Virus record (IMG/VR): IMGVR_UViG_3300007735_000655
Span: 1-34,780 of that record
DNA from: a virus
Taxonomy: Duplodnaviria > Caudoviricetes
Direction: 5' to 3' (one strand)
DNA length: 34,780 nucleotides
Shown in pieces: positions 827 to 34,780 of the stretch (positions are counted from its first letter, which is position 1; the number at the start of each line of letters is the position of its first letter). The notes below the pieces were generated by a model that did not search any database, was not told the origin of the DNA, and saw nothing but the letters and a program-made list of their open reading frames with translations. Position numbers and translations under genes: made by a program.

Positions 827-840
827 TCACGGAGATCAAC

Positions 841-3182: not shown

Positions 3183-3187
3183 GTTAA

Positions 3188-9100: not shown

Positions 9101-9616
9101 GGATATAAAGATTACAAGGAAGGACATTACGACAGAGCTTTGGAAGCTGTGACTCCTGCCTTCATTAGAAATAATCTTAAAACATACAGGTTTGCCGTTG
9201 AGGGCGCAGAGAGCAGAAGCGGCGAGAAGATCTTCGATGACTTCAATAGCTATGAACTCTTCATGCAGGCGCTGGGCTTTACTCCAGTCGAAGTAGCGCG
9301 GCGTTCAGAACTTGCAGGGGCGCTTGCAAGCAGGGTGAATGACGTAGAGAAGAGGAAGACTGCGCTTCTCAACAGGCTTTACTTGGCAAGAATAAACAAA
9401 GACAGGGAAGGGGAAAGGGAAGTTAGGGAAGATATCAAACGGTTCAATCAGAACGAGTTTGTAAGAAAGACTCGTAACGTCATCGGTAACGATGAGATGA
9501 ATGACTCGTTTAACAGACGGCGTAAGAATGCTCGTAGTTCAATCTACGGCATCAACGTGCCAGAGAAGGCCCGTCGCCAGCTAGAGAAAGAATACAAATT
9601 AGAAGAAGATCGCTGA
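3188..9616 (+). CDS. Large polyvalent virion (ejected) protein: zincin metallopeptidase-like + ADP-ribosyltransferase-like (ART-PolyVal) + PLxRFG-like domains
   Basis: 2142 aa. HELGH at 5843-5857 with downstream EWFAD. 'FWNWFSGSKVVDEEGHPIIMYHGS...IFLS...GHDG...NQVKSAIGNNGKFS' ART-like signature at ~6340-6900. 'YLPLYREGDY' at 7493. Confidence 0.75.
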   Translation: MARNVTVFFTDGSSHVYANAPDNVTPDQVTARAQSQFPGKQIRHMDGGRGTTVDTGVKPVTPPVSEDKKEKAGFFGSLQESIQTLGLADEAAAFAANPTEENRRAFLKAAESKYKSVGGFGKGENWEAFKELLGSSLGQLIAPAAVATGASALTSPIGGAVAGAGAIASQYEIQALLRQAQEQNKAIAEGRTPEELSIAKATAAAAGQTALDVAGFKLFRETFRAFPFLRNLVSSEKEIAEDAARKLIEAAKAGTLRSNAKGAVQGIAGGVAFEVPQEVAQQALERWQAGLSLSDAEAREEFKQAAIGAAMLAPVIGGPAGALSAKASRAQAQVLKAATDNAQTRLNEITSKTEPTAEEQAEAAFIQSNLNNPLELAKKYKPAAPATSREESSVTPPPVKPAVTEIKTAEDLLNAPPKVAAEDAPEPLRNEPVSLTEDQVYEEINKMEQQQEQLASLLFDPVQVEIQAKAANQPVEVFTANLTKTYDELATRLDIFDKNYMQRMSTTTQMPGAVPGIQLQRRFTPEELAQAQISSDVAKALNLDVADVQPPVSPAPPTAPEVSRGAEPTSQEVIEPVEPQPTGGGAALPPSGLEPAGRVPTVAPVEGVEPPAPVVSDADVGERAVEPSLEDERIKRIQAAQPALRDIDAEIAALDAAEAVEREKVSEVESFARSAAENAIANQRNYDNLEDSIDSNRENIRETLKENAFGPNSTRLEEQAFAAYDAEIARLRGTPEAATRTEAAPRAQSRLTADQKRVLAERIAQRIAPRGVVLNRAGPFTKSKVVVSDAFNPRLEGFLKAVVNIVGLGDLNIILLSKSDLRTPGARTVTTDKYNLYGGFNVEPLIEYALDPTADGAVNPFSNGKGYAIILDEKMPIQVMLETLGHELGHIIESEAYTNADEKTRTAVFDEYLAWLTKNGQEDTARLIRLTRAWGTSERALDGLPESSLLNEKDQEYLKSFSEWFADNVAKWMTTSEKPLTVVEKFFSALAKRIRKIVAFLTGNRPEFLPAESVKNFLDGLTPLNEAMTAPLIKEAIGFKGPRPIFPSIDGIKNFWNWFSGSKVVDEEGHPIIMYHGSPKVFSIFRSGGRAGAIFLSPDPHFAERFTVDAFDYDVGPMYAVYVNAKNPFDFEDVTQIAALEKALVNEFTIRGGVVGSTDWLAMMSSIREGDWRTIEQPMVQRAIRKLGHDGFYVMESLYSPELMERIESKNLAVYDSNQVKSAIGNNGKFSKKSNDVRQSRRVLAATISNVGNAVNNLPSFNKRVYDGVRGVLDSTRITDAMRSALYTFLSLPQQVEIFVKELPTLRNLLNVLNVRASSLKDRKEDLDRNVRKWNDTIKDNIQYKDEFYEVAHESTRLTGPDGKQGVQFSNPMHANHPLTQRFKRLPVALQKVYFEMLESYRKMSDEYVALLSKNLSPREAKRLQREMAQKRLRVYLPLYREGDYWLRYQDAKNETVVQSFKSNYERELAWKEALANGAQPNSNQIFARIEDFFDGKGPGTFFNRVLDDLNKRGVSPAVKRSLYELYLDQIPAASVRQLYRKRDGYKGYESDLMNVYSTVATRMANQLTNLEYIPEIDSVFDDVKEEAKQFAASGQSKNRSVPLLIENLNKQMEYLRDPGNGSLVNALSSFSYYWYIIGNVSTAIINTTQLPMVVYPMLAGKYGIDKASAAMSDATKQYFKGGFDNDNIPGGYKKFPADFSFGVNVPPNSPLGKLYKAAVRQSAIRRSSGYDLVQGRKKTYGMGDYVGLMAKMEQILGWTFQNSERFNREVTLIAAFNLEMQKNGGNVDGAIKAALDLVNDTHGTVLAETSPRIFQTGFGKVAFTFKNFAQTQIYLQAKLLREAVRGESPEVKQLAAKQMIGIMTMAFVFAGIHGMPFYSAGTLLVDLLADLFGDDDDPVKSDEIVRQSVGALAHKGVVNELFMADVAARTGFNGLLWKDDDKRLEEVGPVLFAAEQIFGPSYAAFMGFFRGYKDYKEGHYDRALEAVTPAFIRNNLKTYRFAVEGAESRSGEKIFDDFNSYELFMQALGFTPVEVARRSELAGALASRVNDVEKRKTALLNRLYLARINKDREGEREVREDIKRFNQNEFVRKTRNVIGNDEMNDSFNRRRKNARSSIYGINVPEKARRQLEKEYKLEEDR

Positions 9617-9820
9617 TTACTTAATACGCCAGACGCGCACTCCAAGGTGTCCTTCCTTGGACGAGGCGTAAGCCTTTACCCGTACTTGGGCAACCTTAGA
9701 GCGGCAATCTATAACGTACAGCATCTCAGAGATCTTGAGGGTGGGGATAAAGAAACTATCCCCTACCGCCATGCCTTCAAATGGAAAGATCCACTCAGGC
9801 TCCATTACTCGTGTTGTCAT
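9617..9820 (-). CDS. Conserved small phage protein (FPFxxMxVGDSFFIP motif), possibly DNA-binding
   Basis: 67 aa, overlaps the primase 3' end; GGAG SD; motif recognisable from other phage hypotheticals. Confidence 0.65.
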   Translation of the reverse strand: MTTRVMEPEWIFPFEGMAVGDSFFIPTLKISEMLYVIDCRSKVAQVRVKAYASSKEGHLGVRVWRIK

Positions 9821-13845: not shown

Positions 13846-14241
13846 TCACTGACTGGCTTTACGTACTGAAATTCCAAACTCGCGCATCACATTGACACCG
13901 GGCGGCAACCCGTCGCCATCGTGATCCTTCATGAACTCTTTGAAGTTACTCTGATGGATGCGCCGCTCAAGTAACTGTACTGCTTCGTTGTCGAGAACAA
14001 ACTTGTAAAAGTTCTCCCAATCTTGGCAGAAGAAGCGTTCATTCAACTTTCTCATCACTGTGCCGTGGCGCGTCTTGATGCTATCTGCGTTGACAGAATT
14101 ACACATCTCAAGCATCACGGCTTCTAACTTCGCCATATCTTCTTTCAGCGCGTTGTCTGCGGCTTCGTAATCACGGGCCAACTTCTCACGCTGAGAGCGT
14201 ATTGCTAAATACGCTTCGACTAACTCATCTGTGTTACCCAC
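13846..14241 (-). CDS. Conserved phage hypothetical protein (coiled-coil N-terminus, 'LLERRIHQSNF...PPG')
   Basis: 131 aa, GTG start with AAGGAG SD, tight operon packing. Confidence 0.7.
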   Translation of the reverse strand: MGNTDELVEAYLAIRSQREKLARDYEAADNALKEDMAKLEAVMLEMCNSVNADSIKTRHGTVMRKLNERFFCQDWENFYKFVLDNEAVQLLERRIHQSNFKEFMKDHDGDGLPPGVNVMREFGISVRKASQ

Positions 14242-24250: not shown

Positions 24251-24363
24251 CAGTATTCTCTCCCACCACGCTTCGCTGCCCAGTCAGGGGGCGGCACTCG
24301 CATCCTGTCGCGCTCTACGTCCCACAACCATCTACGCCATGCATTCTTTAGCCATGTAATCAT
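24247..24363 (-). CDS. 38-aa Trp/Arg-rich peptide (not in ORF track)
   Basis: MITWLKNAWRRWLWDVERDRMRVPPPDWAAKRGGREYW; AGGAGG SD; ATGA and GTGA overlaps at both ends. Confidence 0.65.
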   Translation of the reverse strand: MITWLKNAWRRWLWDVERDRMRVPPPDWAAKRGGREYW

Positions 24364-24995: not shown

Positions 24996-25203
24996 AACCC
25001 ACCTCTCGTTCAGCCAACATGGTGTCGGCTATGCTGTAAGAAATTTTTGACGCTTCGTCGGCAGACATGGCGACTCCGTGAGACGCTAACAGCCCTTGCA
25101 TTGCTTTGGCTGCAAAATAGTCCCGCAGAGTCATGCCATGTCCCCACCATTTCAAACGCTCCGCTTCCAACTGAGGGAAAGCGAATTCGTTTCTAGGTTT
25201 CAC
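24958..25203 (-). CDS. Conserved phage hypothetical protein (AFP...GMTLRDYFAAKAMQ family)
   Basis: Motif widespread in proteobacterial phages. Confidence 0.8.
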   Translation of the reverse strand: MKPRNEFAFPQLEAERLKWWGHGMTLRDYFAAKAMQGLLASHGVAMSADEASKISYSIADTMLAEREVGYESGANRPQAAK

Positions 25204-25697
25204 GCATCTCTCCGCGCTTCGATCTCACGATCCAAGTAGAAGCGGGCCTTCTCCAAGTCCTGTAAAGGATCAGAATCTACTTTCTTACCGGTACGGCTGA
25301 TGTACTTGACCACGTTACCCAGTCGGTAATTAAGATCTTTAGCCTCAATGAACTTCAGCGTGTCTATGCCACCATCGGTGTAGTGCGGGGGACGATTGAC
25401 AAGATCAAGTTTCTTTTCTGCCACATCCAACTCGGCAAGCAATTTCATGGCCGTGTTTTTGTGTTGTGGTTGAATGATTAACTTCGTCGGCTTCTTCTCA
25501 ATCACATCCAAGGCTTGCTTCATTTCTTTCACAGCCTTGACGATCTTCGACTTCTTTTTCTTGGGTGCGGTCTTACCTTTTTTATCAATCCAACGCACGT
25601 AGTACACGTACGCCTCGCTTGACTTTGTGGCCTTTGCCACTTGCTTGATTGAGTTCCCCTTGCTGAGAAGGGACAGGATCTTCTTTGCTTTGGACAT
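25200..25697 (-). CDS. N-terminal HTH-like + DUF3310 (SaV-like) protein
   Basis: 'DLVNRPPHY..GG', 'GNVVKY..R..KK', 'DLEKA.FYL'; N-terminus 'GNSIKQVAKATKSSEAYVY' is HTH-like. Confidence 0.75.
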   Translation of the reverse strand: MSKAKKILSLLSKGNSIKQVAKATKSSEAYVYYVRWIDKKGKTAPKKKKSKIVKAVKEMKQALDVIEKKPTKLIIQPQHKNTAMKLLAELDVAEKKLDLVNRPPHYTDGGIDTLKFIEAKDLNYRLGNVVKYISRTGKKVDSDPLQDLEKARFYLDREIEARRDA

Positions 25698-25977
25698 GAC
25701 TTAATAACTCCTTGCGTAGGTTCTCTACGTTTGTTTCATCAACTATCAATGCGATGCCACCGGCTTTACGTATGTCATCGTGGTTCTTCAACTGAAGTGC
25801 GGTGGCCTTCCCACCGTTTGCTTTTGTCTCTATACCATAAAACAACCCGGCGATACAAATAATAAAATCTGGCGCTCCGCTGTTCCCGTAGCCCCCTGTA
25901 ACTGGCATCACGTAGTAGGCGTTCAGATCAGCAAGAATCTCTTTGACGCGCTTCTTTACTTTGGCTTCTGGAGTCAT
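25585..25977 (-). CDS. VRR-NUC family nuclease
   Basis: 'MTPEAKVK', 'GAPD', 'GIETKA', 'TALQ', 'AGGIALIV'. Confidence 0.85.
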   Translation of the reverse strand: MTPEAKVKKRVKEILADLNAYYVMPVTGGYGNSGAPDFIICIAGLFYGIETKANGGKATALQLKNHDDIRKAGGIALIVDETNVENLRKELLSHVQSKEDPVPSQQGELNQASGKGHKVKRGVRVLRALD

Positions 25978-25996
25978 GGTTCCTCATGGCAATCAG

Positions 25997-26012
25997 CGTA
26001 TTAACTAATACG
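25997..26012. promoter_or_regulatory. 16-bp palindromic operator-like site
   Basis: CGTATTA-AC-TAATACG (arms extend to AG...CT), between a stop codon and the VRR-NUC RBS. Confidence 0.75.
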
Positions 26013-26016
26013 CTAA

Positions 26017-26364
26017 CTAACCACGGGGAACTTCGCCGCGCAACTCCTCTAAGACTTTTTCTGGCAAGACCAACACGTACTCGCAGACAGAAAACCGCCA
26101 ACCGATATCTTTAGATGCCTCTGGATACTCGGGTAAAAACGGGAAATCAAACACAGGACTCCATGCTCCTATGTAATTCCCATCTTTTTTCTGCCAATTC
26201 CATGCGTGGATCATGGCTAATTTAGTTCTTATATGATCGGGCAACTCACTCAAGGGCAGCATCCTGACCATGCAGTCGCCCACATGGATGTGCAGATTAT
26301 TGTCAACAAGTTCGGCGTACACCCGCTTGTTGCCATCGTGAAAAGGTAGTGGATCGTGATACAT
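26017..26364 (-). CDS. Hypothetical protein
   Basis: 115 aa, GAGG SD; stop 5 nt from a palindrome. Confidence 0.65.
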   Translation of the reverse strand: MYHDPLPFHDGNKRVYAELVDNNLHIHVGDCMVRMLPLSELPDHIRTKLAMIHAWNWQKKDGNYIGAWSPVFDFPFLPEYPEASKDIGWRFSVCEYVLVLPEKVLEELRGEVPRG

Positions 26365-26367
26365 ACC

Positions 26368-27387
26368 TCACCTCGGCAGGATCATTACTTTCCCCCAACT
26401 CGCCGCACCGATATCCATCCAGATCTGCCTCTGGTCAGCCTGCGGAATCAGAGAATCTGCGTTCCGGTGTACCTTCAGCATCATCAGCGCATAATCTAAT
26501 TCACGACGGTACTCTTCAGGGATGGCGTCATAGCATGGGTACCACTTGGGCATCAGCGAGAATGGTGCAAAGTCATGCGTCTCACCATGCGGCAGAGAGT
26601 CGCCCCACTTGTAGATATCCAACCCTGCAACCGCACCATCGGGAAAGATCGCGCCCAGTATGACACCGTGGTTGACCTCGTTGATCAACACCCACTTGCC
26701 TTGGTCGAAGAAAGTTTTAGTCTTCTCAATAGCCTCTTCAAACTTGTTGTTGTTTAGCGTGTAGTCGTTGTACTTGCTGTCGAAAGTTTGGCGCATATCA
26801 GCGGGCATCTGGAGCATGGTGGTCTTACCCATGACCACGTTGGACAAGAACGTAGTGATATCAGAGTCGTACTCAACTGTCGGGCGGCTCGACACGCTGC
26901 GACCGTACGCCCTGTCCACTAACGTGTCTGAGATAGAGCGCAGGACATTCGATACAGCACGTATCGCATCAGTGGAAGTACGTCTCAGCCATGATGCTGC
27001 TACGTGATCAGAGTTCTTGGACAGTTTAACCCGGAGATAATTTGCGCTTGTACTACTGATTAGGACATTACTCGACGGCTCGGATACACCATCGCTCGTC
27101 GCTGAGAAGTCAAACGTGCCACGGTTGCACCTGACCTTACCCACCATGAAGCCTTCCGGTGTAGTAAGTACCGCAGACATGATAGTTTCTTTCGGATCTG
27201 CACTCGTAGAGATCTGACTGTTGACGATGTGACCGACACGAATCTTTCTCTCGGTGGTGTTGTACATGGTCGCCACGATGGGGAACAGCGGAGAGCGGAT
27301 GAAACTCTGCTTCTCTATGAATGAATGCTGCCCCTCAAGGAAGAGATCGTCGGTGTTGAATTTGATTCTGGCCTTACCCACTTTCAT
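26368..27387 (-). CDS. Hypothetical protein
   Basis: 339 aa, AGGAG SD; no motif recognised. Confidence 0.75.
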   Translation of the reverse strand: MKVGKARIKFNTDDLFLEGQHSFIEKQSFIRSPLFPIVATMYNTTERKIRVGHIVNSQISTSADPKETIMSAVLTTPEGFMVGKVRCNRGTFDFSATSDGVSEPSSNVLISSTSANYLRVKLSKNSDHVAASWLRRTSTDAIRAVSNVLRSISDTLVDRAYGRSVSSRPTVEYDSDITTFLSNVVMGKTTMLQMPADMRQTFDSKYNDYTLNNNKFEEAIEKTKTFFDQGKWVLINEVNHGVILGAIFPDGAVAGLDIYKWGDSLPHGETHDFAPFSLMPKWYPCYDAIPEEYRRELDYALMMLKVHRNADSLIPQADQRQIWMDIGAASWGKVMILPR

Positions 27388-27392
27388 AACTC

Positions 27393-27602
27393 CTATCGTT
27401 GATTGATATCTTTACCATCGAGCCACACTTCGATGCCGTTACCAGAGTATGCACCGTCGTTGCCTCGCTCAAACTTAAACGCATCTACCCTTGCGTACTG
27501 CATCCACTCGCGCCCGGTCATGTGAAACTCCTTGGCCTTCTTGTAATCCCAACCGTAGAGTTTCGTGCGTGGTGGAAGTTTGTCTAGTTTGTATTTATTC
27601 AC
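27393..27602 (-). CDS. Hypothetical protein
   Basis: 69 aa, GTG start after AGGA. Confidence 0.55.
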   Translation of the reverse strand: MNKYKLDKLPPRTKLYGWDYKKAKEFHMTGREWMQYARVDAFKFERGNDGAYSGNGIEVWLDGKDINQR

Positions 27603-27608
27603 GTTTTC

Positions 27609-27863
27609 CTACCCCAACTCAACTGGGGCGCGATCTTCAAAGTCCACCCAACCTTTCAGCACGGATGAGATTGAGTACGTACCGCGATACTTCGTACCTA
27701 CCCATGCAGAAAGTTTCTTGTCTCCCATCTGCGCGATCTTATTCTTCGCTTCTTCCGCTGCTTGTTCCCACACATTTTCGCTAGGTTTATTACCCTTGAC
27801 CTCGCTCTTTACCAGACTTATTGAATTGTTCTGGTGGTCATAGACCACAAATGTAACTTTCAT
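27609..27863 (-). CDS. Hypothetical protein
   Basis: ATG 27863 (MKVTFVVYD) with GAGGAG SD; the longer listed ORF overlaps the upstream gene. Confidence 0.6.
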   Translation of the reverse strand: MKVTFVVYDHQNNSISLVKSEVKGNKPSENVWEQAAEEAKNKIAQMGDKKLSAWVGTKYRGTYSISSVLKGWVDFEDRAPVELG

Positions 27864-27864
27864 C

Positions 27865-28074
27865 TCACATCTCCTCTGCCAAAGTCCACTTTTGAGTGTC
27901 CATAAAAACCTCTTCAACCCATACAGCGTTAGGTCTATGACCACTAAAGAATGATTCAGTCCATTCGTCAGTGGTTTGTGTAATGGATTGAATGATCTCG
28001 TCAGCCTTGTCACTTTCGATGTCATCTACTCCATCAAACTCAAACACGACCAACACTTGCATCTTCTTACCCAT
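27865..28074 (-). CDS. Acidic hypothetical protein
   Basis: 69 aa; GGAG SD merges with palindrome 28085-28100. Confidence 0.65.
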   Translation of the reverse strand: MGKKMQVLVVFEFDGVDDIESDKADEIIQSITQTTDEWTESFFSGHRPNAVWVEEVFMDTQKWTLAEEM

Positions 28075-28084
28075 GTCACATCTC

Positions 28085-28100
28085 CGTATTAGTTAATACG
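28085..28100. promoter_or_regulatory. 16-bp palindromic operator-like site
   Basis: CGTATTA-GT-TAATACG, abutting the vWA stop and the next SD. Confidence 0.75.
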
Positions 28101-29297
28101 CTAATCGTTGATCTGAATCTTGCCGCCCTTCGGTGGCACGAAACTCTGCAACCCGCCCTGCGTGATCAGCCACAACGCCGGGATGTCCACTCGCCATTTG
28201 ATATCGTCCTCCAAGTACCCATCGGTGAAGACAATTACACAGTCAGCAGTCAGGTTCTTGTTGAGGATGTAATCACTGACGCTGCTAACTCGCGTGCCGC
28301 CTCCGCCCATCGGTTTGAGCAGACTTGTGATGTTCTCGTAATTACCCTCGAACACCTGCTCGCCATGCACCTTCGTATCCCACCACAACACACGGATACG
28401 CTCGGGTGTGACGCTCTCACACAGTTCCCGAATGTGAGTCGCAACCTTGCCAATGTCATCATTGCTGATAGACCCTGACGTATCGATAGCGAGGATCACT
28501 TCGCCCACCGTCTCGTTGATTGACGATGGCAAGTAGTAATCATCAGCCAGTCGATGCTTGTTGAACCTACGCCATGTCAGTTCATCCGAACCGCGTACCG
28601 CTGACACCCAGAATTCTTGCAGCACTTCGCGCCAGTCAACCTGTGGTGCCATGAGTTCTTTGATGACGCGGGGGATCTTCGCGCCAAACTTGCCCGCCAG
28701 AATGCCGCCTTGGTGGATGGCATCATCCACATCGCGCTTGGCCTGACCCTGCTGCTCCTCGGTCATGCCCTCGTACGGCTGATCGTCATGCTCATCGAAT
28801 GATTCTTGTGGGCGACCGCCACCCTTGCCGCTTTCGCATTCCTTCTTCAAATACTCGTACACACGACGGACAGACCACCCGTGAAACATCGGGTCGTAGA
28901 AACAATTATCAGGTAGGGATGCAAGTTTCGGGTGCGACTTGTTGATCTCCATGATGATGTCATTCACCACGTAGTCCATCGCAATGTTAGCGAGCCGCCC
29001 GTTCTCCTTCATCAGATCACGGTGACGGGGAATATGCTTCAGCAACACGTGCAAGTTCTCGTGTAGCACTAGACCTGCGATCTCTTCGTCAGAGAGTTTC
29101 TCCATGAACGCACGACCGTATCGCTTGTTGTAGCCATCGGTGTACGCAGTCGGGCATTTACGCGGATCATCCACGATGCTCGACTCACCCATCAGGATCA
29201 CACCACCGTAGAGACAAGTCTCGGGATGCTTGATCAGTTTGATGTGTGCCTTCTTCAAACGTATCTCTATATCAACTTGCTTCGGTACTGCACTCAT
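28101..29297 (-). CDS. Metallopeptidase (HExxH) + vWA-like protein (DUF2201-like)
   Basis: 'TAYTDG', 'HENLH', 'NIAMDYVVN', MIDAS 'DTSGS', 'GGGGT', 'FTDG'. Confidence 0.85.
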   Translation of the reverse strand: MSAVPKQVDIEIRLKKAHIKLIKHPETCLYGGVILMGESSIVDDPRKCPTAYTDGYNKRYGRAFMEKLSDEEIAGLVLHENLHVLLKHIPRHRDLMKENGRLANIAMDYVVNDIIMEINKSHPKLASLPDNCFYDPMFHGWSVRRVYEYLKKECESGKGGGRPQESFDEHDDQPYEGMTEEQQGQAKRDVDDAIHQGGILAGKFGAKIPRVIKELMAPQVDWREVLQEFWVSAVRGSDELTWRRFNKHRLADDYYLPSSINETVGEVILAIDTSGSISNDDIGKVATHIRELCESVTPERIRVLWWDTKVHGEQVFEGNYENITSLLKPMGGGGTRVSSVSDYILNKNLTADCVIVFTDGYLEDDIKWRVDIPALWLITQGGLQSFVPPKGGKIQIND

Positions 29298-29473
29298 AAC
29301 TTCACCTCTGGATATCTAACTGTGATGGTCGCGCCCATCTCGCGGGTCAACTGCAACTCGGAATAGTCAAAAGTTTTCTTACGCATCAAGGTAGCGAGTA
29401 TCGTCGCCTCCTTGTTCTCAGGGTAAAACCTGACCGTTCCGTACGTTTCTTTCCGCATTACTACTACTTCCAT
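29294..29473 (-). CDS. Small phage hypothetical protein, 59 aa (not in ORF track)
   Basis: MEVVVMRKETYGTVRFYPENKEATILATLMRKKTF...; GAGGAG SD; ATGA overlap with the vWA gene. Confidence 0.6.
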   Translation of the reverse strand: MEVVVMRKETYGTVRFYPENKEATILATLMRKKTFDYSELQLTREMGATITVRYPEVKL

Positions 29474-29499
29474 AGACTCCTCACGGCATCATAAGTTCC
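29472..29499 (-). promoter_or_regulatory. sigmaE/RpoE-type promoter
   Basis: GGAACT-N16-GTCTAT (GGAACTT). Confidence 0.55.
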
Positions 29500-30557
29500 A
29501 AGTTCTTCATGCCCCACGCCTTGATCTGCTCGTTACGACTGGCGAGTTTGCTGATACGACCCTGCAATGCCATCGTAAAGAAACATTCTTGGACTTCATC
29601 GGAGCGGATACGATTCACGAACGTCATGAACGCAGACAGATCGTCCTGCGTTTCGATAGTGTCCACGGCATTGAACATCGTCAGGAACAACGCCGCTGCC
29701 TTCTCGGGCATCTGTACATTCTCAGGATCGTTGAGGATGGTCTTCACCGATACCAACTCCTTCTCAAGAGTCAGGAATGCCTCAAACGAATTAGCGAACG
29801 CGCTGCCACACGTACCGGCAAGAGCCGCCTTCGTCACCGCTCGACCCAACTTCTCGTAGTTCTTCACCACGACATCAACCTTGGCGAGGGATCGGGGTGT
29901 CACGAATGACAACACTCCACGACGCGACGGATTGAAAATAAACTCGTTGTCGTCCTGCCCACCATCAAGGTATGACGCAAGGCACTTCGGGTTCATCGCC
30001 ACCCATGCACGGATGCTGCGAGAGATACCCTTGTTCGATGCCCAGAGATTCCACTTCACGTGTCGTGGTTTATCCACATTGACCACCATCACACGATTGC
30101 CAGCGTGAGCGAGCATCGCATCGCCAACACCATCAGAGGAATGATTAGACGTTGCAAACACGATTGACCCAGCAGGCAATGCTCTATCGCCAATGGTTCT
30201 CTCCAACATCAGCCGGGTGAAGAGTGTCTGAAGAAGTTTGTTGGTCTTCATGAACTCGTCGAGCATGATGATCTTGGGCTTGGGCGAATCAAGTTTGAAC
30301 AGCGACGACACGTAAGACTCTAGTGCCTTGGTGTCATGGTTCGGGATACGCATCACGATGTCAGACAAGTCCATCACCGGACAGTCTGCATAGATATAGT
30401 CATACGCATCGCCGTAGCGCACCTCAAGTTCACGCAGTACGCTCGACTTGCCGATACCCGGCTCACCCTTCAGCACCACCGTGATCTCATGACCCACCGT
30501 CATGATCAGGTTCGGTACATCATCCAACGAAACAGGATCTTCGATTTGAATAGCCAT
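29481..30557 (-). CDS. MoxR-like AAA+ ATPase
   Basis: Walker A GEPGIGKS, Walker B IIMLDE, sensor ATSN, 'TPRS'; adjacent to the vWA gene. Confidence 0.85.
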   Translation of the reverse strand: MAIQIEDPVSLDDVPNLIMTVGHEITVVLKGEPGIGKSSVLRELEVRYGDAYDYIYADCPVMDLSDIVMRIPNHDTKALESYVSSLFKLDSPKPKIIMLDEFMKTNKLLQTLFTRLMLERTIGDRALPAGSIVFATSNHSSDGVGDAMLAHAGNRVMVVNVDKPRHVKWNLWASNKGISRSIRAWVAMNPKCLASYLDGGQDDNEFIFNPSRRGVLSFVTPRSLAKVDVVVKNYEKLGRAVTKAALAGTCGSAFANSFEAFLTLEKELVSVKTILNDPENVQMPEKAAALFLTMFNAVDTIETQDDLSAFMTFVNRIRSDEVQECFFTMALQGRISKLASRNEQIKAWGMKNLELMMP

Positions 30558-30570
30558 GCTGCTACCTCAC

Positions 30571-30586
30571 AGTATTAGTTAATACG
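30571..30586. promoter_or_regulatory. 16-bp palindromic operator-like site (1 mismatch)
   Basis: AGTATTA-GT-TAATACG, abutting the stop at 30587, upstream of the AAA RBS. Confidence 0.7.
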
Positions 30587-30796
30587 TTACCAATCGACAC
30601 AGTTATTGCAGTTACCAAAGAAGTCATCGCCCATGACGGGGATCAGTTCTTCGGGGGGATAGACAAGTATCATCTCGCCATCGATGGAATCTTCGTCATC
30701 CACGATCACTACATCACCGTTCCAATCAAACCTAATGATCTTCCCGGTGATGTCTTGGTCTCGCACCTTTACTCTTTGACCAATCTCAAACGACAT
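30587..30796 (-). CDS. Small SH3/KOW-like hypothetical protein
   Basis: 'FEIGQRVKV....GKI' beta-barrel pattern. Confidence 0.55.
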   Translation of the reverse strand: MSFEIGQRVKVRDQDITGKIIRFDWNGDVVIVDDEDSIDGEMILVYPPEELIPVMGDDFFGNCNNCVDW

Positions 30797-30802
30797 AGTT
30801 CC
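30775..30802 (-). promoter_or_regulatory. sigmaE/RpoE-type promoter
   Basis: GGAACT-N16-GTCAAA. Confidence 0.6.
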
Positions 30803-30805
30803 CCC

Positions 30806-31732
30806 TTACATCCCAAACTTACTGAGGATGTCATCAATACCTTCTTTGATGACGACACGCTGCGTATCTGAGTTCCGCAGTTTCTCAATCTCCACGCCGT
30901 CAAGCAGCCGCTCAAGTCCTGAGCGAGCCTCTTCCAGTCGAGGGTCAGCCGTCAGGTTAAATTTCTTGAACGTCTCACAGAGTTCCCGCGCTCTGTCGAG
31001 CGTCGAGTCATAAAGTTTTCTGCGACGGATCTTCACCTCGCCGTTATCGTCGATCACCGTCTCGGTCTCGCAGCAATGCGACAGCGACTTCATGATCTCG
31101 GTTAGTTGGGTGGTCTGCTTGCTCAGAATGTCCTCGACCAACCGCTTGGCCTGACGCTCGTAATGCTTAGACATATCTTCAGCCAAGTCCTGCGAGATAG
31201 CGCATCGGAAGTCGCCGGTCGGCACCTCGCTCTGAATCAGGTCGATGCTGAATTTGTGTCGCAGTTCAGATACATCGGGATACTCGCTGCGATTGAACAT
31301 AGTGCCTTGCACAAACGCCATGTTCGACACGATGCTCGGGTACTTGTCCAAGAAGTCATCCACCAGATCGTTAAACTTCTGCACGTGATCGCGGTACTCG
31401 GTATGGAACCTAGTCAGGTTAGCCACAGGTAGTAGGCGTTGCGATCCCGCCCAGTCGTACGTGCATCGCTGCATCCAGTTATAGATGGTCTGGCGATAGT
31501 TCAGCACCGCCTTGTGTTCGGCGTTCTTGGCAAGGAGATTCTTGACGAACTTGCCCGCGTCCTTGTCTGCCCGCTTCGCTGAAGTTACCTCTTCGCTGAT
31601 CTCACGATCCTGCACCGTCGCGTTCCATACGTGGCTCTCAATAGAGACCAACACGCACGATGTAGACAGGGACGTAATGTGCTTCGGCTTGTTCAGCAGT
31701 TCGTCGCTTACTCCACCCACTTGCATATCCAT
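30806..31732 (-). CDS. DUF3150-like conserved phage protein
   Basis: 308 aa; 'K.LL', 'F...YP', 'YPD...L..KF', 'FNLT.D..L' pattern; typical neighbour of AAA/vWA genes. Confidence 0.6.
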   Translation of the reverse strand: MDMQVGGVSDELLNKPKHITSLSTSCVLVSIESHVWNATVQDREISEEVTSAKRADKDAGKFVKNLLAKNAEHKAVLNYRQTIYNWMQRCTYDWAGSQRLLPVANLTRFHTEYRDHVQKFNDLVDDFLDKYPSIVSNMAFVQGTMFNRSEYPDVSELRHKFSIDLIQSEVPTGDFRCAISQDLAEDMSKHYERQAKRLVEDILSKQTTQLTEIMKSLSHCCETETVIDDNGEVKIRRRKLYDSTLDRARELCETFKKFNLTADPRLEEARSGLERLLDGVEIEKLRNSDTQRVVIKEGIDDILSKFGM

Positions 31733-31734
31733 GT

Positions 31735-31935
31735 TCAGTCCTCCGTATTAGGTAATACGCTCTTGGTTGATTCGATGTACTTCAATCTCTCGATATGGTC
31801 GCGGATATACCGCTGCCATGCGTTCTCGACTAGTAACTTAGACTCGGTTTCTAACTTTAAGTTCCGTAGGTCTTTCAACTTTTTCTCAGACTCACGTAAC
31901 TTCTTGGTCAGGCCTTCGATTGTGTTATCAATCAT
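31735..31935 (-). CDS. Small coiled-coil hypothetical protein
   Basis: 66 aa; contains a promoter motif and a palindrome. Confidence 0.55.
   Translation of the reverse strand: MIDNTIEGLTKKLRESEKKLKDLRNLKLETESKLLVENAWQRYIRDHIERLKYIESTKSVLPNTED
31744..31759. promoter_or_regulatory. 16-bp palindromic operator-like site
   Basis: CGTATTA-GG-TAATACG, merges with the GGAGG SD. Confidence 0.75.
31838..31865 (-). promoter_or_regulatory. sigmaE/RpoE-type promoter
   Basis: GGAACT-N16-GTCTAA (GGAACTT). Confidence 0.7.
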
Positions 31936-32167
31936 AGGAATACACCGCCTTCAAAGTCTCGTCGTTCATCAGCAGTCGCTTCTTGTATCCGTTGCCCACG
32001 TTCATGCACGTGAAGTAAAACAACGCACGGCCAAGGTTCCCCTTGACTGTGTATCTAGTCTTAAACGATGACTTGTACCGTCCCACCTGCACGTAGAATT
32101 CAGTCTCGCTTGAGTAGGCAATACGTTTGCCGTCCATCTCGCCTACCTTGATTTCGATTTGTTCCAT
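31928..32167 (-). CDS. Hypothetical protein
   Basis: 79 aa, GAAGG upstream. Confidence 0.6.
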   Translation of the reverse strand: MEQIEIKVGEMDGKRIAYSSETEFYVQVGRYKSSFKTRYTVKGNLGRALFYFTCMNVGNGYKKRLLMNDETLKAVYSYD

Positions 32168-32171
32168 ACCT

Positions 32172-32375
32172 TCACCCTCTTGCTACCTTGTTCAAACACT
32201 TCAGCAGCGCCCTATCGGACACCACCACGTAATTGCTCTTATGCATCGGCACGACTGTGTGCCGCACCTTCTTGGCATCAGCCTCGCCACAACGTAGGCA
32301 GGTAATGAATCCCGCTTCGACTCGCTTGGCTGCTACCTCTTCCGTTCGACAGACCACGCAGTAATTAGTTCCCAC
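32172..32375 (-). CDS. C4 zinc-finger protein, DksA/TraR-finger-like
   Basis: CVVC-x16-CLRC with 'EEV..KR.EA'; GGAGG SD. Confidence 0.6.
   Translation of the reverse strand: MGTNYCVVCRTEEVAAKRVEAGFITCLRCGEADAKKVRHTVVPMHKSNYVVVSDRALLKCLNKVARG
32345..32372 (-). promoter_or_regulatory. sigmaE/RpoE-type promoter
   Basis: GGAACT-N16-GTCGAA. Confidence 0.55.
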
Positions 32376-32385
32376 TTGCCACCTC

Positions 32386-32401
32386 CGTATTACTTAATAC
32401 G
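32386..32401. promoter_or_regulatory. 16-bp palindromic operator-like site
   Basis: CGTATTA-CT-TAATACG, contains a stop codon and merges with the GGAGG SD. Confidence 0.75.
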
Positions 32402-32575
32402 CTTGGCTCGGCTCAGGACTTGCCGGGTTAGCAGGGTCAGGGCGATCAGCCCCGCCGTGTAGTTCATTAGATATATCCACCCGCCTTGCGGGATCATGAA
32501 GGCTAGGGCTTGGGTTACGGCTATCGTGGCGAGGATTGTTAGGGCAAACTCCCACGCTCTCTTGTATCCGTTCAT
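32390..32575 (-). CDS. Small two-TM membrane protein
   Basis: 61 aa with two hydrophobic segments and a basic tail; AGGAG SD. Confidence 0.6.
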   Translation of the reverse strand: MNGYKRAWEFALTILATIAVTQALAFMIPQGGWIYLMNYTAGLIALTLLTRQVLSRAKRIK

Positions 32576-32842
32576 GTCACTCTCCTACCGCAGATGCGGT
32601 GATTAAATGGTTAATTAAAGTAATCACCCACGCGGAGACTGAAAGATCCGAAAAAACGAACCCAACAGTCTCCACTAGGCTGCTCACTCTTTGGCTTCGC
32701 AGCAGTTCTAGGCAGATACTCGGGACGGCTTCGGCTGTTATGCCTCTACCTCATGTCCCTAACGCTGCCGGGTGTATGTTGCCCACCCGTACCGGCTGAT
32801 GGGTCGCGTGATCTAGGCAGGGATGGATGTCCAGACTTGGCG

Positions 32843-32858
32843 CGTATTAGTTAATACG
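32843..32858. promoter_or_regulatory. 16-bp palindromic operator-like site
   Basis: CGTATTA-GT-TAATACG. Confidence 0.75.
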
Positions 32859-33074
32859 CTGTTCCCGTTAGTCCTCTTTTACGGACACCGACCCATGCCG
32901 ACTTGTCACCACTTGACCCTTCGCGTTGAGTGAGTACATCACCGGGAACTACGCGCACCCGACCCCTTGATATGGGGCCACCGTACCTTGCCATCGGTAC
33001 GTCGCGGCTCTGTCCACCGCGCCTTACCCTGCTACCGGCTTTCGGCTTGCAGTCTCGGGAACCGGCTCAAACTG

Positions 33075-33090
33075 CGTATTACTTAATACG
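33075..33090. promoter_or_regulatory. 16-bp palindromic operator-like site
   Basis: CGTATTA-CT-TAATACG, 40 bp downstream of a promoter -10. Confidence 0.75.
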
Positions 33091-33129
33091 CTGCGGCTCG
33101 CGCCGTTGTTTTTTGCCTGTTCTATATAG

Positions 33130-33157
33130 TTAGACAAGTCAAAACGGGAAAAGTTCC
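33130..33157 (-). promoter_or_regulatory. sigmaE/RpoE-type promoter
   Basis: GGAACT-N16-GTCTAA (GGAACTT) with phased A-tracts upstream. Confidence 0.75.
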
Positions 33158-33238
33158 CTGAGTTCTGTCGATTTTTGATGTTTTTGGTGATGTTTTTACT
33201 TGGAGGATCGAAATGGCGATTTTGGCGTGGCCTGTTAC

Positions 33239-33254
33239 CGTATTAGGTAATACG
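33239..33254. promoter_or_regulatory. 16-bp palindromic operator-like site
   Basis: CGTATTA-GG-TAATACG. Confidence 0.75.
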
Positions 33255-33267
33255 CTGCGGGGCGTTT

Positions 33268-33705
33268 TGTTCCAGTTTGTTCCACGGCAAGGGCTGTTTT
33301 GTTCCATTTGTTCCAAATGTTCCAAAATCGAAACTTGTCTTTTTCTTCAAAATTCGGGGGTAGGCGGTTTTGCGGGTCTGGCGTAAGTCGTTGTTTTTCC
33401 AGAGTAGTAGTAGTAGTAGTAGTATTTATATAGATAGATAGATAGAAGTGGAGGGGGAAAAAAGGCCTTGTTCCACGAAAAGGGGAAAATAGGGTATAAG
33501 GGGGAAAATTGAATTTTGCGGGGGGCGTGAGTTTATGACGTTAAGAAATGACGCTTGCCGCTCCCCCTCGCGCTGACCTGCTTAGCCTATTTTTGGAACA
33601 TTGGAACAAATGGAACAAAACGGTGTTTTCGCTTTATAAATCATGCACTTGCGTTGTTCCAACGTGAAAAGCGTTTTGGAACAAATGGAACAAGGCTCTG
33701 GAACA
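33268..33705. repeat. Iteron-like TGTTCCA/TGGAACA array (13 copies), candidate replication origin
   Basis: TGTTCCA at 33268, 33278, 33300, 33309, 33318, 33469, 33655; TGGAACA at 33594, 33602, 33611, 33677, 33686, 33699. Confidence 0.7.
33403..33446. repeat. Microsatellites (AGT)7 and (TAGA)4
   Basis: Read directly: 33403-33423 and 33431-33446. Confidence 0.9.
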
Positions 33706-33731
33706 AAGTCTTTGCGTGGCCTCCCGCAAAG

Positions 33732-33851
33732 AACTGGCATCGCGCAGAGAACTGGCATCGCTAAAGAGTCTAACTGGTATCAGACTAGGAACTGGCTTCA
33801 CCAGAACTGGTATCGCTAAAGAGTCTAACTGGTATCAGACTAGGAACTGGC
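33732..33851. repeat. AACTGG repeat array with 48-bp direct duplication
   Basis: AACTGG at 33732, 33750, 33772, 33790, 33805, 33827, 33845; 33749-33796 repeated at 33804-33851 with one mismatch. Confidence 0.85.
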
Positions 33852-33890
33852 CTCGCGGAGCGAGCCGGGCCGGGCCGGGCCGGGAACGGC

Positions 33891-33921
33891 AAAACCCCGA
33901 CCACCTTTCGGTGGCCGGGGT
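33891..33921 (-). terminator. Rho-independent terminator after the 199-aa gene
   Basis: Minus strand ACCCCGGCCACC-GAAA-GGTGGTCGGGGT-TTT: 12-bp stem, GNRA loop, short U tract. Confidence 0.7.
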
Positions 33922-33930
33922 CGCGTGGCG

Positions 33931-33946
33931 CGTATTAGTTAATACG
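33931..33946. promoter_or_regulatory. 16-bp palindromic operator-like site
   Basis: CGTATTA-GT-TAATACG, between the stop codon and the terminator. Confidence 0.75.
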
Positions 33947-33949
33947 CTG

Positions 33950-34549
33950 TCAGGCCTTGCGGGGGATCGGTTGCCGGGCTGCGACATGGGGCCGCGCTAC
34001 CTTGACCAGATTATCAAGGCCGTTCAGTAGGGCGAGCGCGCCGTCAGGCGACTTTTCGGACAGGATGACCAAGGCCTCAGTCACGAGCGCGAGCACGCCA
34101 GTAGGGTCGGGAAGTTTCTCGGCCTCAGTCTCGACCGGGGCATCGATAGCGTCGGGTATCAGTTTGGTGACGTTTTGCCGGAACGCGACCCGAACGTAGT
34201 CTTGCGCGGCCTTGCGGAGTTTAATTTCGGTATCGTTGAAGGCCTTGGCCGTTTTCTTGTCGGCCGTCCACAGGGTCACATCGTACCGGGTCGCGTCCAC
34301 AATCTCGCCACCAATTTCGCGTGGGGAAGTGAAGAAAGACTCTGCGAAAATCAGCCGGCCTTGCGCGTCAAACTCTTTCCATTCGTCGGAGTCTGTCACG
34401 GCCTTAATCTCGGCCATCGTCGGGCGCTCGGGGAACAGCGTCGGAACGTCGGCACGAATCTGCGCGAACGCTTCGGCCTTAGTCGAGTCGCCCTTGGCGA
34501 CCTTGCGGAGATTGGCGAGAATATCATTCAGGACAAGATTGGCGATCAT
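33950..34549 (-). CDS. Hypothetical protein, first gene of the leftward arm in this window
   Basis: 199 aa, GAGG SD, own promoter upstream and terminator downstream. Confidence 0.7.
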   Translation of the reverse strand: MIANLVLNDILANLRKVAKGDSTKAEAFAQIRADVPTLFPERPTMAEIKAVTDSDEWKEFDAQGRLIFAESFFTSPREIGGEIVDATRYDVTLWTADKKTAKAFNDTEIKLRKAAQDYVRVAFRQNVTKLIPDAIDAPVETEAEKLPDPTGVLALVTEALVILSEKSPDGALALLNGLDNLVKVARPHVAARQPIPRKA

Positions 34550-34597
34550 TTTGCTACCCTCAGTTACGTGACGCGATATTGCGTCGGTTACGTAGAA

Positions 34598-34625
34598 TTA
34601 GACCGGGCGGGTTCAGATTGGTTCC
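34598..34625 (-). promoter_or_regulatory. sigmaE/RpoE-type promoter
   Basis: GGAACC-N16-GTCTAA with AT-rich UP element upstream. Confidence 0.65.
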
Positions 34626-34661
34626 GTGATTTTTAAAAATTTTTAGTGGTATTTTCGCAAC

Positions 34662-34677
34662 CGTATTAACTAATACG
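34662..34677. promoter_or_regulatory. 16-bp palindromic operator-like site
   Basis: CGTATTA-AC-TAATACG, 37 bp upstream of a promoter -35. Confidence 0.75.
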
Positions 34678-34780
34678 CTGTCGCGCCGACGCCACAGGGA
34701 CGAAATCGGCCAGACCGAGACCCCACCGGTACCCGACCCCCCGAGCAGAAACAGGAGTCCCACAGTCTCACCCCTCCTCT

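What the first reader, a model, noticed from the sequence alone, without database searches (positions are those of the whole stretch)
29472..34625. Early region apparently wired to the envelope-stress sigma factor: six co-oriented sigmaE/RpoE-type promoters
Seen: six minus-strand 28-bp motifs with identical geometry, GGAACY-N16-GTCNAW, at 34598-34625, 33130-33157, 32345-32372, 31838-31865, 30775-30802 and 29472-29499. All point in the direction of transcription. My manual scan of other GTTCC/GGAAC sites found no correctly spaced -10 elsewhere. Four lie in or overlap coding sequence, and two intergenic ones have A-tract UP elements. Established: the E. coli sigmaE and Pseudomonas AlgU consensus is GGAACTT/GAACTT-N16-TCNAA/TCTNA. 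Inference: the phage runs its early genes from the host extracytoplasmic-stress sigma, possibly using the envelope stress caused by its own adsorption or ejection as the trigger, or as a host-state sensor. An ECF-like sigma encoded outside the window is the alternative.
Basis: partly seen in the sequence, partly recalled or inferred. Interest (0 to 1): 0.9.

Follow-up and report, generated by a model that had tools for sequence, protein, structure and literature searches.

The report
Phage clade swapped to stress-sigma promoters
A freshwater phage and its close relatives carry sigmaE-type (stress sigma factor) promoter sequences along their early genes, in several of the same places where related phages carry ordinary housekeeping promoter sequences, and have no recognisable sigma factor of their own, so they likely start infection with a host stress sigma factor.

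Summary
Confirmed. Six GGAACY-N16-GTCNAW sites lie at the stated coordinates, all sense to the early arm (0.06 expected by chance). They match the E. coli sigmaE boxes and spacer.

The motif is conserved with free spacers across one clade: 139 sense and 0 antisense sites in 53 loci, none in 39 outgroup loci. Before the DUF3150 gene the nearest outgroup carries TTGACA-17-TATAAT instead, so the lineage likely swapped sigma70 for ECF promoters once.

No sigma or RNA polymerase was found in the window or in relatives up to 94% complete, so a host sigma is likely. Three limits apply:
- The host is unknown, and ECF281 and ECF25 share this consensus, so 'envelope-stress RpoE' is likely, not shown.
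- Nothing supports triggering by the phage's own ejection; basal sigmaE could suffice.
- P3 is weak.

Two unrelated phages with the same promoter motif carry a full RpoE-like domain inside a giant, probably ejected protein. This clade lacks it.

The parts
34598..34625 (-). P1, ECF-type promoter sequence GGAACC-N16-GTCTAA upstream of gene 1; predicted +1 at 34591 (G)
   Evidence: perfect match in 19 of 22 regions upstream of gene 1 and in 13 of 13 held-out metagenome loci with enough upstream DNA, of 16 fetched
34626..34660 (-). A-tract, UP-element-like region of P1
   Evidence: conserved A-tracts; two A-rich peaks about 10 bp apart in the logo of 69 distinct sites
33950..34549 (-). Gene 1, 199 aa, all-helical two-domain protein; candidate palindrome-binding regulator; family found only in the ECF clade
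33885..33923 (-). Predicted intrinsic terminator after gene 1 (GC-rich hairpin, then TTTT)
   Evidence: -29.3 kcal/mol, z -2.91
33268..33851 (.). Origin- or packaging-like region: two oppositely oriented TGGAACA repeat clusters around an AT-rich microsatellite, plus seven CCAGTT repeats
   Evidence: similar repeats in the sigma70-type relative L019; function inferred
33130..33157 (-). P2, GGAACT-N16-GTCTAA with upstream A-tracts; predicted +1 at 33123 (A)
   Evidence: perfect in 25 of 25 distinct clade regions anchored on the repeat cluster
32345..32372 (-). P3, weakest site; overlaps the first codons of a C4 zinc-finger ORF
   Evidence: perfect in 5 of 23 and within 1 mismatch in 19 of 23 clade regions, 0 of 24 outgroup regions; protein constraint may contribute
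32172..32375 (-). 67-aa CxxC-16-CxxC zinc-finger ORF, present in both clades; not TraR
31838..31865 (-). P4, inside the 66-aa ORF, upstream of the DUF3150-like gene
   Evidence: perfect in 28 of 29 clade regions, 0 of 33 outgroup regions within 1 mismatch; 8 of 33 outgroup regions carry perfect TTGACA-17-TATAAT here; boxes fixed while codons change
31735..31935 (-). 66-aa ORF found only in the ECF clade; function unknown
30806..31732 (-). DUF3150-like gene, 308 aa
   Evidence: tblastn to the DUF3150 protein of phage MinM2, E 3e-7
30775..30802 (-). P5, overlapping the start of a 69-aa ORF, upstream of the ATPase
   Evidence: a perfect site lies within 300 nt upstream of the ATPase in 16 of 34 clade regions, at two different positions; 0 of 35 outgroup regions
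29481..30557 (-). AAA ATPase, used as the family marker
29472..29499 (-). P6, overlapping the ATPase stop, upstream of the DUF2201 gene
   Evidence: perfect in 14 and within 1 mismatch in 25 of 32 clade regions, at two alternative positions; 0 of 36 outgroup regions
28101..29297 (-). DUF2201 metallopeptidase/VWA gene
34662..34677 (.). Palindrome CGTATTA-NN-TAATACG, 36 nt upstream of the P1 -35 box
33931..33946 (.). Palindrome between the gene 1 stop and the terminator
33239..33254 (.). Palindrome upstream of P2
33075..33090 (.). Palindrome downstream of P2
32843..32858 (.). Palindrome in the P2 leader
32386..32401 (.). Palindrome at a gene junction, upstream of P3
31744..31759 (.). Palindrome before the ribosome-binding site of the DUF3150-like gene
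30571..30586 (.). Palindrome (1 mismatch) before the ATPase
28085..28100 (.). Palindrome at the DUF2201 stop
25997..26012 (.). Palindrome at a gene junction
14198..14213 (.). Palindrome (2 mismatches) in the replication arm
   Evidence: a counterpart in G001, G002 and G004
9613..9628 (.). Palindrome-like site (2 mismatches) where the early and late arms meet

Best explanation
The six motifs are conserved sigmaE-type promoter sequences on the early arm of a phage clade with no recognisable sigma factor, and they are likely read by a host ECF sigma factor, most likely RpoE/AlgU. Shown: the sites, their strand bias and conservation, their restriction to one clade, a sigma70 consensus at the same place in the nearest outgroup, and no detectable sigma or RNA polymerase. 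Inferred: after DNA entry, host core polymerase with this sigma starts at P1 (gene 1, then a terminator) and at P2, with P4-P6 as internal boosters of the arm that runs on to the polymerase, helicase and primase genes. The ancestor likely used sigma70 at these places and swapped once. Near-consensus boxes with A-tracts suggest that basal sigma levels suffice and that stress would amplify the output. Gene 1 protein likely binds the 12 palindromes and limits or shuts off the arm.
For:: statistics, single spacer, match to published E. coli words. (PMC1312014 passages): -35 GGAACTTTT, -10 T/CGGTCAAAA, 16-nt spacer, purine start 26/27 nt after the -35 box; all six sites have a purine at the 27-nt position (read); 139 sense and 0 antisense sites in 53 clade loci (464 kb), 0 in 39 outgroup loci (395 kb); sigma70-like sense sites in 0 of 53 against 26 of 39. 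ECF label on one side of a branch, SH-aLRT 99; tests anchored on proteins or repeats, not on the motif; residues change (R/W; E/R/G/K) while box letters stay in 17 distinct versions; 2 sigma70-like sites in 24000-34780 against 10.0 +/- 3.4 expected, none beyond 25.5 kb; no sigma, with working positive controls; two unrelated phages pair the same motif with an RpoE-like domain, which supports the motif being read by such a sigma; gene 1 identity follows palindrome type, not ATPase kinship.
Against: No transcription start and no sigma dependence were measured. The host is unknown. ECF281 (GGAACTT/GTCTAA) and ECF25/SigG (GGAAC/GTC) share the consensus. No clade genome is complete: the window is 54% and the best relative 94%. 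P3 is perfect in only 5 of 23 regions, P5 in 16 of 34 and P6 in 14 of 32. 13 of 39 outgroup loci show no sigma70 pattern, and only 14 of 33 are within 2 mismatches at the P4 slot. The tree is a quick single-gene tree with a midpoint root. Gene 1 has no known DNA-binding fold, and L090 breaks the co-variation (35% to the window, 24% to L113).
Confidence: 0.7

Rival explanations
1. The promoters are read by a host ECF sigma that is not the envelope-stress RpoE (for example ECF281, or ECF25/SigG in a cyanobacterium). The swap would then reflect a jump to a different host rather than a stress strategy.
For: The supplement of PMC7826278 gives GGAACTT/GTCTAA for ECF281 (Firmicutes, Actinobacteria, Deinococcus, Proteobacteria) and GGAAC/GTC for ECF25 (half cyanobacterial). 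The nearest cultured capsids (73%) come from phages deposited as cyanophages. The host was not identified.
Against: The spacer, the extended CGGTC/TGTC -10 and the start spacing fit the E. coli sigmaE model. The sigma domains in other phages with this motif score best to TIGR02939 RpoE, below its cut-off. Other cultured capsid relatives infect Proteobacteria.
Confidence: 0.15
2. The phage brings its own ECF-like sigma or promoter-recognition factor, packed in the virion as a domain of an ejection protein, so the promoters are independent of the host's stress state.
For: This arrangement exists: G019 and G020 carry a full RpoE-like domain (E 8e-39 and 2e-27) inside 1694- and 1377-aa proteins, and the same motif lies before small genes. 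Earlier unchecked notes report strongly diverged sigma-like modules in ejection proteins. Two ORFs are confined to the ECF clade. The ejection proteins could not be folded here.
Against: Profile-profile comparison gave at most 1.9% probability over 71 ejection-protein segments and 16% (20-30 columns) over 134 other ORFs, against 99.7-99.9% for the controls. No ejection-protein segment is shared by all clade genomes and absent from the outgroup. Gene 1 and the 339-aa protein gave confident models with no sigma among the listed fold matches. A sigma that reads an unchanged consensus should stay recognisable (inference).
Confidence: 0.09
3. Stress-gated version: basal sigma is too low, so the lytic programme waits for, or itself provokes, envelope stress.
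For: ECF activity is set mainly by the free sigma level (PMC3326320 section 23). No sigma70 back-up is seen in the arm. Host-regulator gating is described for CtrA, Spo0A and LexA (PMC9437464 passages). A palindrome and regulator pair could hold the genome quiet.
Against: The best sites are near consensus with A-tracts, the class active at low polymerase levels; only P2 has the T-tract of that class. No coding-strand ORF of the clade ends in an aromatic-x-Phe motif (DegS trigger, recalled). The zinc-finger ORF lacks the TraR DxxDxA motif and occurs in both clades.
Confidence: 0.25
4. The motif is not a promoter: it is a binding site of a phage protein or a by-product of conserved codons.
For: Four of six sites overlap ORFs; P3 and P6 follow conserved residues.
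Against: P1 and P2 are intergenic and fully conserved with free spacers. The motif is asymmetric, has a fixed 16-nt gap and occurs only on the sense strand. It survives amino-acid changes, reappears at alternative positions, and stands where the nearest outgroup has TTGACA-17-TATAAT.
Confidence: 0.04

Closest known systems
E. coli sigmaE (RpoE) and Pseudomonas AlgU regulon promoters, ECF02 (PMC1312014, PMC3326320, PMC7826278)
   Same: GGAAC(T) -35 box, GTCNAA -10 box, 16-nt spacer, upstream A-tracts, purine at the expected start
   Different: On a phage genome, heading early and replication genes; closer to consensus than most host promoters; sigma dependence untested; host unknown
ECF281 and ECF25 (SigG) predicted promoters (PMC7826278 supplement)
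   Same: GGAACTT/GTCTAA and GGAAC/GTC words
   Different: Spacer not given in the passages read; no link to the host shown
Phage use of host regulators: YuA with sigma70 and sigma54 (PMC10914365); CtrA lytic deferment, phi29 Spo0A, LexA (PMC9437464)
   Same: A phage without its own polymerase wires genes to a host regulatory protein
   Different: Here it is an ECF sigma, it covers the first promoters of the early arm, and the gain maps to one branch against sigma70-type relatives
Cluster A mycobacteriophage stoperators and phiC31 conserved inverted repeats (recalled; the first also named notes)
   Same: Many copies of one short site at gene junctions of the early region, with a candidate phage regulator
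   Different: These sites are palindromic and change sequence between subclades; the candidate protein has no known fold; no integrase family hit in G010
HTVC023P-type and MinM2/Yong1-like podoviruses
   Same: Major capsid 63-73% identical (G001 capsid); ATPase, DUF3150 and VWA genes and a 13-14-copy palindrome array in MinM2
   Different: MinM2 has 0 strict ECF motifs in 65 kb and a different replication module

Membership tests
ECF02 (RpoE/AlgU) promoters | -35 box GGAACTT / GAACTTT | tested here: met
   GGAAC in 6 of 6, GGAACT in 5 of 6, GGAACTT in 3 of 6
ECF02 (RpoE/AlgU) promoters | -10 box GTCAAA / GTCT | tested here: met
   GTCTAA x3, GTCAAA, GTCGAA, GTCTAT
ECF02 (RpoE/AlgU) promoters | 16-nt spacer between GGAACTT and TCAAA | tested here: met
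   6 at this spacing, 0 at 13 other spacings
ECF02 (RpoE/AlgU) promoters | A/T-rich UP region | tested here: met
   P1 and P2 only; absent at sites inside genes
ECF02 (RpoE/AlgU) promoters | Transcription start 26/27 nt after the -35 box | tested here: inconclusive
   A purine stands there in 6 of 6; only contigs of RNA runs were available and they cannot show starts
ECF02 (RpoE/AlgU) promoters | Activity depends on RpoE and its RseA pathway | not testable with these tools
   needs reporters or in vitro transcription
ECF02 (RpoE/AlgU) promoters | Host is a proteobacterium with an ECF02 sigma | tested here: inconclusive
   no host found
ECF281 / ECF25 promoters | GGAACTT/GTCTAA or GGAAC/GTC words | tested here: met
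ECF281 / ECF25 promoters | Host encodes such a sigma | tested here: inconclusive
   host unknown
Phage-encoded or virion-embedded sigma system | Sigma-70 family domain in the genome, by sequence profile | tested here: not met
   PF04542 and PF08281: 0 of 5 records; TIGR02937: 0 of 5; Pfam on 84 G010 ORFs; hhalign; no clade genome is complete
Phage-encoded or virion-embedded sigma system | Sigma-like fold in an unannotated protein | tested here: inconclusive
   only gene 1 and the 339-aa protein were folded; the ejection proteins were not
Stoperator-type arrays (features recalled) | Many conserved sites at gene junctions | tested here: met
   12 sites, 0.06 expected
Stoperator-type arrays (features recalled) | Asymmetric, oriented 13-bp site | tested here: not met
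   the sites are 16-bp palindromes
Stoperator-type arrays (features recalled) | Bound by the phage repressor | not testable with these tools
   only co-variation with gene 1
TraR/DksA family (ORF 32172-32375) | N-terminal DxxDxA helix and CxxC-17-CxxC | tested here: not met
   cysteines start at residue 6 with 16 residues between the pairs; no DxxDxA; no Pfam hit

The most novel reading that the evidence does not exclude
A lytic phage lineage gave up the housekeeping sigma and gates its first transcription on the host envelope-stress sigma, using it as a sensor or self-pulled trigger, balanced by its own fast-evolving operator and regulator pair. It is one end of a wider strategy in which unrelated phages run early genes from sigmaE promoters, some borrowing the host sigma and others injecting an RpoE-like domain inside a virion protein.
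Probability: 0.25. Interest if true: 0.9.

Novelty: new variant of a known kind. Interest (0 to 1): 0.72.

Why it matters
Phages without their own polymerase are generally taken to start from housekeeping-sigma promoters (recalled). Here a natural comparison shows sigma70-type and sigmaE-type versions of the same early operon in sister lineages, which makes the choice of host sigma testable with a few synthetic promoters in laboratory E. coli or Pseudomonas. Ten literature searches returned no listing that describes sigmaE-driven phage early genes; subscription journals are largely missing from that library. The motif also clusters in other viral contigs: 22 of 78 motif-seeded loci had at least 2 sites. 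Two of 10 records tested carry an RpoE-like domain inside a giant protein. The strategy may therefore be common and overlooked by promoter predictors built on sigma70.

Tried and rejected
Host identification failed three ways. The ATPase profile in genome contigs gave 9 distant loci from 8 of 64 parts scanned. Glycosyltransferase homologues gave no useful names. The gene 1 profile in metagenome contigs gave 16 loci on contigs of at most 36 kb and no prophage context.

RNA evidence: 3 runs on record as RNA hold small shares of the region, all as contigs. One contig begins 12 nt after the predicted P2 start (X10, 33111) and one near P3 (X11, 32342), but other X11 contigs cross P2. I count this as no evidence either way.

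Gene 1 as a hidden sigma: confident model (pLDDT 91), no Foldseek match at E <= 0.001, best VIA Z 6.1 to TetR C-terminal bundles, which is a common level for helical bundles. The atlas gave only unnamed clusters. The 339-aa protein is alpha/beta with no match. The 66-aa ORF gave nothing above 0.87.

TraR-like activator: rejected. DegS-type C-terminal trigger (motif recalled): none in coding-strand ORFs of the clade genomes. A second hairpin at 32640-32700 does not fold better than shuffles (z 0.16). The first slot C test cut the site off and was redone. The careful tree did not finish; the quick tree is used. The atlas did not answer for the 339-aa protein or the ejection protein.

Full report
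WHAT THE WINDOW IS. A 34.8-kb, 54%-complete linear virus record. The plus strand from 86 to 9616 carries ejection-type genes, ending in a 2142-aa PLxRFG protein with an ART-PolyVal domain. The minus strand carries one long arm from 34549 down to 9617: small genes, a DUF3150-like gene, an AAA ATPase, DUF2201, modification enzymes, PolA, an exonuclease, a helicase and a primase. In larger relatives the terminase, portal and capsid genes start divergently just beyond gene 1. The capsid of relative G001 is 73% identical to those of MinM2/Yong1/JY27 and 63-65% to DSL-LC04 and HTVC023P/027P. Complete relatives are 62-64 kb. The runs that hold the region are labelled aquatic or freshwater, and one with a small share marine. 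'Early' is inferred from gene content and position.

THE OBSERVATION. All six sites are present (0.06 expected). The spacing is unique: 6 at N16 and 0 at the other 13 spacings. With published E. coli words alone, five of the six are the only minus-strand hits with at most 2 mismatches. PMC1312014 (passages) gives -35 GGAACTTTT, -10 T/CGGTCAAAA, a preferred 16-nt spacer, an A/T-rich upstream region and a purine start 26/27 nt after the -35 box. All six sites have the spacer and a purine at the 27-nt position (read); P1 and P2 have A-tracts. One plus-strand near match at 12065 is not conserved. Sigma70-like sites are depleted in 24000-34780: 2 against 10.0 +/- 3.4.

CONSERVATION. I oriented 92 loci on the ATPase: the window, the 29 loci, the best 80 of 454 hits, and loci. 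Some are near-identical strains or the same contig fetched twice. Loci at 62% ATPase identity or more (53 loci) hold 139 strict sites, all sense; 48 of the 53 have at least one. The 39 loci below 62% hold none, and 26 of them have a sense sigma70-like pattern, which none of the 53 has. The 62% line was drawn after seeing the data, but it coincides with a branch. In a quick IQ-TREE tree of 74 distinct ATPases the 35 motif-bearing rows lie on one side of a branch with SH-aLRT 99, and several sigma70-type lineages lie outside. The root is a midpoint, so a single gain is likely, not proven.

TESTS ANCHORED ON PROTEINS OR REPEATS (distinct regions only). P1 is perfect in 19 of 22 and in 13 of 13 usable held-out metagenome loci of 16. 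P2 is perfect in 25 of 25. P4 is perfect in 28 of 29, with 0 of 33 outgroup regions within one mismatch. P5 is perfect in 16 of 34 and P6 in 14 of 32 (25 within one mismatch), each at two alternative positions. P3 is perfect in 5 of 23 (19 within one mismatch) and follows conserved codons. Spacer positions carry 0.5 bits or less beyond the first. At P4 the residues vary (R/W; E/R/G/K) while the box letters stay, and Asn is AAC in 17 of 17 versions against 88:42 in six window genes. Selection therefore acts on the DNA.

THE SWAP. At the P4 slot, 8 of 33 outgroup regions, all in the nearest sister group, carry a perfect TTGACA-17-TATAAT, and 14 of 33 are within two mismatches; no clade region is. 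L019, L100, L103, L104 and L105 show sigma70-like sites before gene 1, after the repeat cluster or before the DUF3150 gene. This positional match is the strongest sign that the motif is a promoter. More distant outgroup loci are less clear: 13 of 39 show no pattern.

WHICH SIGMA. No sigma domain was found by PF04542 or PF08281 in 5 records, by TIGR02937 in 5 records including G010 at 94%, by Pfam on 84 G010 ORFs or by PHROGs on 75 ORFs of relatives. No RNA polymerase or integrase family appeared in those scans. The part missing from G010, an ejection gene, is whole in G002, G004 and G012. Only two real-looking ORFs are confined to the clade: gene 1 and the 66-aa ORF (part of the output was cut). 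Gene 1 has the size of an ECF sigma, but its confident model matched no sigma among the listed hits.

A SERIOUS RIVAL. A scan of viral contigs with a 15-letter version of the motif gave 120 loci from 29 of 64 parts. Of the 78 at least 3 kb long, 22 held two or more sites (42 extra sites against 0 for a reversed pattern), and 20 of the 22 had no hit to seven marker proteins of this family. Of 10 such records tested, 2 (G019, G020) carry a sigma domain. In both it is a full RpoE-like domain inside a 1694- or 1377-aa protein; in G019 that gene lies between head-closure and tail-fibre-type genes. The motif precedes small genes in both. I therefore searched this clade's ejection proteins. NCBIfam found no sigma. 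Profile-profile scores peaked at 1.9% for 71 segments and 16% for 134 other ORFs, against 99.7-99.9% for the controls. No segment is shared by all clade genomes and missing from the outgroup. A host sigma is the simplest reading.

WHICH HOST SIGMA. The supplement of PMC7826278 (passages; the file was cut when stored) lists GAACTTT/GTCT for ECF02 (all Proteobacteria), GGAACTT/GTCTAA for ECF281 and GGAAC/GTC for ECF25. The host was not found. RpoE is the best-documented fit but is not shown.

TRIGGER OR NOT. PMC3326320 (abstract and section 23) reports that strong sigmaE promoters are active at low polymerase concentration and weaker ones only at high concentration. P1, P2 and P4 are near consensus, so basal sigma may be enough. 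I found no DegS-type trigger end (motif recalled) and no TraR (PMC9239242 passages; the TraR-sigmaE paper was seen only as a title in its reference list). The ejection-trigger idea stays open and unsupported.

THE SECOND LAYER. The arm holds 12 copies of CGTATTA-NN-TAATACG (9 perfect, 0.06 expected), at gene junctions and around P1 and P2. Relatives keep the layout and change the letters: CGTATC-N4-GATACG, GCCAT-N6-ATGGC, GTCAG-N6-CTGAC, TCCTG-N7-CAGGA, and GTTCA-N3-TGAAC in MinM2. Among 18 chosen loci, gene 1 identity to the window is 46-77% where the palindrome is the same (ATPase 63-89%) and 19-35% where it differs; four other genes do not follow it. L090 is a partial exception. The palindrome changes within the clade while the promoter does not. 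This fits a private phage regulator working beside a host-fixed promoter (inference).

WHAT IS KNOWN. YuA uses sigma70 and sigma54 (PMC10914365 passages). CtrA, Spo0A and LexA are co-opted by phages (PMC9437464 passages). Ten searches (listings and abstract starts only) showed no description of sigmaE-driven phage early genes. Unchecked notes of this scan report sigmaE-type promoters in other sigma-less phages, palindrome arrays in relatives, and sigma-like modules in ejection proteins; I treat these as leads, not support.

VERDICT. The feature is real and conserved. My estimates: promoter about 0.95; read by a host ECF sigma about 0.85; RpoE-type about 0.7; true stress gating about 0.25. It is a new variant of host-regulator co-option, with an unusually clean evolutionary control. 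Interest 0.72.

Noticed in passing
L322:2007-7091 (-) (G019) and L323:2903-7036 (+) (G020): Two unrelated, 100%-complete phages carry a full RpoE-like ECF sigma domain (TIGR02939 E 8e-39 and 2e-27; aa 367-542 and about 490-665) inside giant 1694- and 1377-aa proteins, and 5-6 GGAACT-N16-GTC(T/C/A/G)AA sites before small genes (L229, L248). A candidate virion-injected sigmaE with its cognate promoters; worth its own study.
   Followed up: partly
window 9613-34677: Twelve CGTATTA-NN-TAATACG palindromes at gene junctions; the sequence changes between subclades together with gene 1 (33950-34549).
   Followed up: yes
L069 (G006) 2221, 3536, 6001; also L224, L228, L239, L270: Other phages with 3-7 sites of the same motif and no PF04542 or TIGR02937 hit in the records tested; G021 (L224) is 100% complete.
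   Followed up: partly
window 33268-33851: Oppositely oriented TGGAACA repeat clusters around an AT-rich microsatellite, and seven CCAGTT repeats; origin- or packaging-like, shared with sigma70-type relatives.
   Followed up: partly
window 32679-33123 (-): About 450 nt of apparently non-coding leader after P2 with two palindromes; one RNA-run contig (X10) covers 32679-33111 at depth 15. It could be a structured RNA; not folded.
   Followed up: no
window 31735-31935 (-): 66-aa ORF confined to the ECF clade, which contains P4; a candidate for a sigma-related helper, with no evidence yet.
   Followed up: partly
window 3188-9616 (+); L167:2174-7714 (+): The giant ejection protein has mosaic cargo: ART-PolyVal in the window, FtsK-gamma in G010.
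   Followed up: no
L084 (OQ594354.1) locus 23400-37000: Cultured phage MinM2 has 13-14 GTTCAG-N-CTGAAC palindromes across its small-gene arm, so the operator idea can be tested in an isolate. MinM2, Yong1 and JY27 have the same length, 65,014 bp, under three different cyanobacterial host names.
   Followed up: partly
L019 2400-3930: Two tandem copies of the gene-1-position unit (palindrome, TTGACA site, about 205-aa ORF, terminator).
   Followed up: no
window 12065-12092 (+): Single antisense one-mismatch site inside the primase gene; not conserved.
   Followed up: yes
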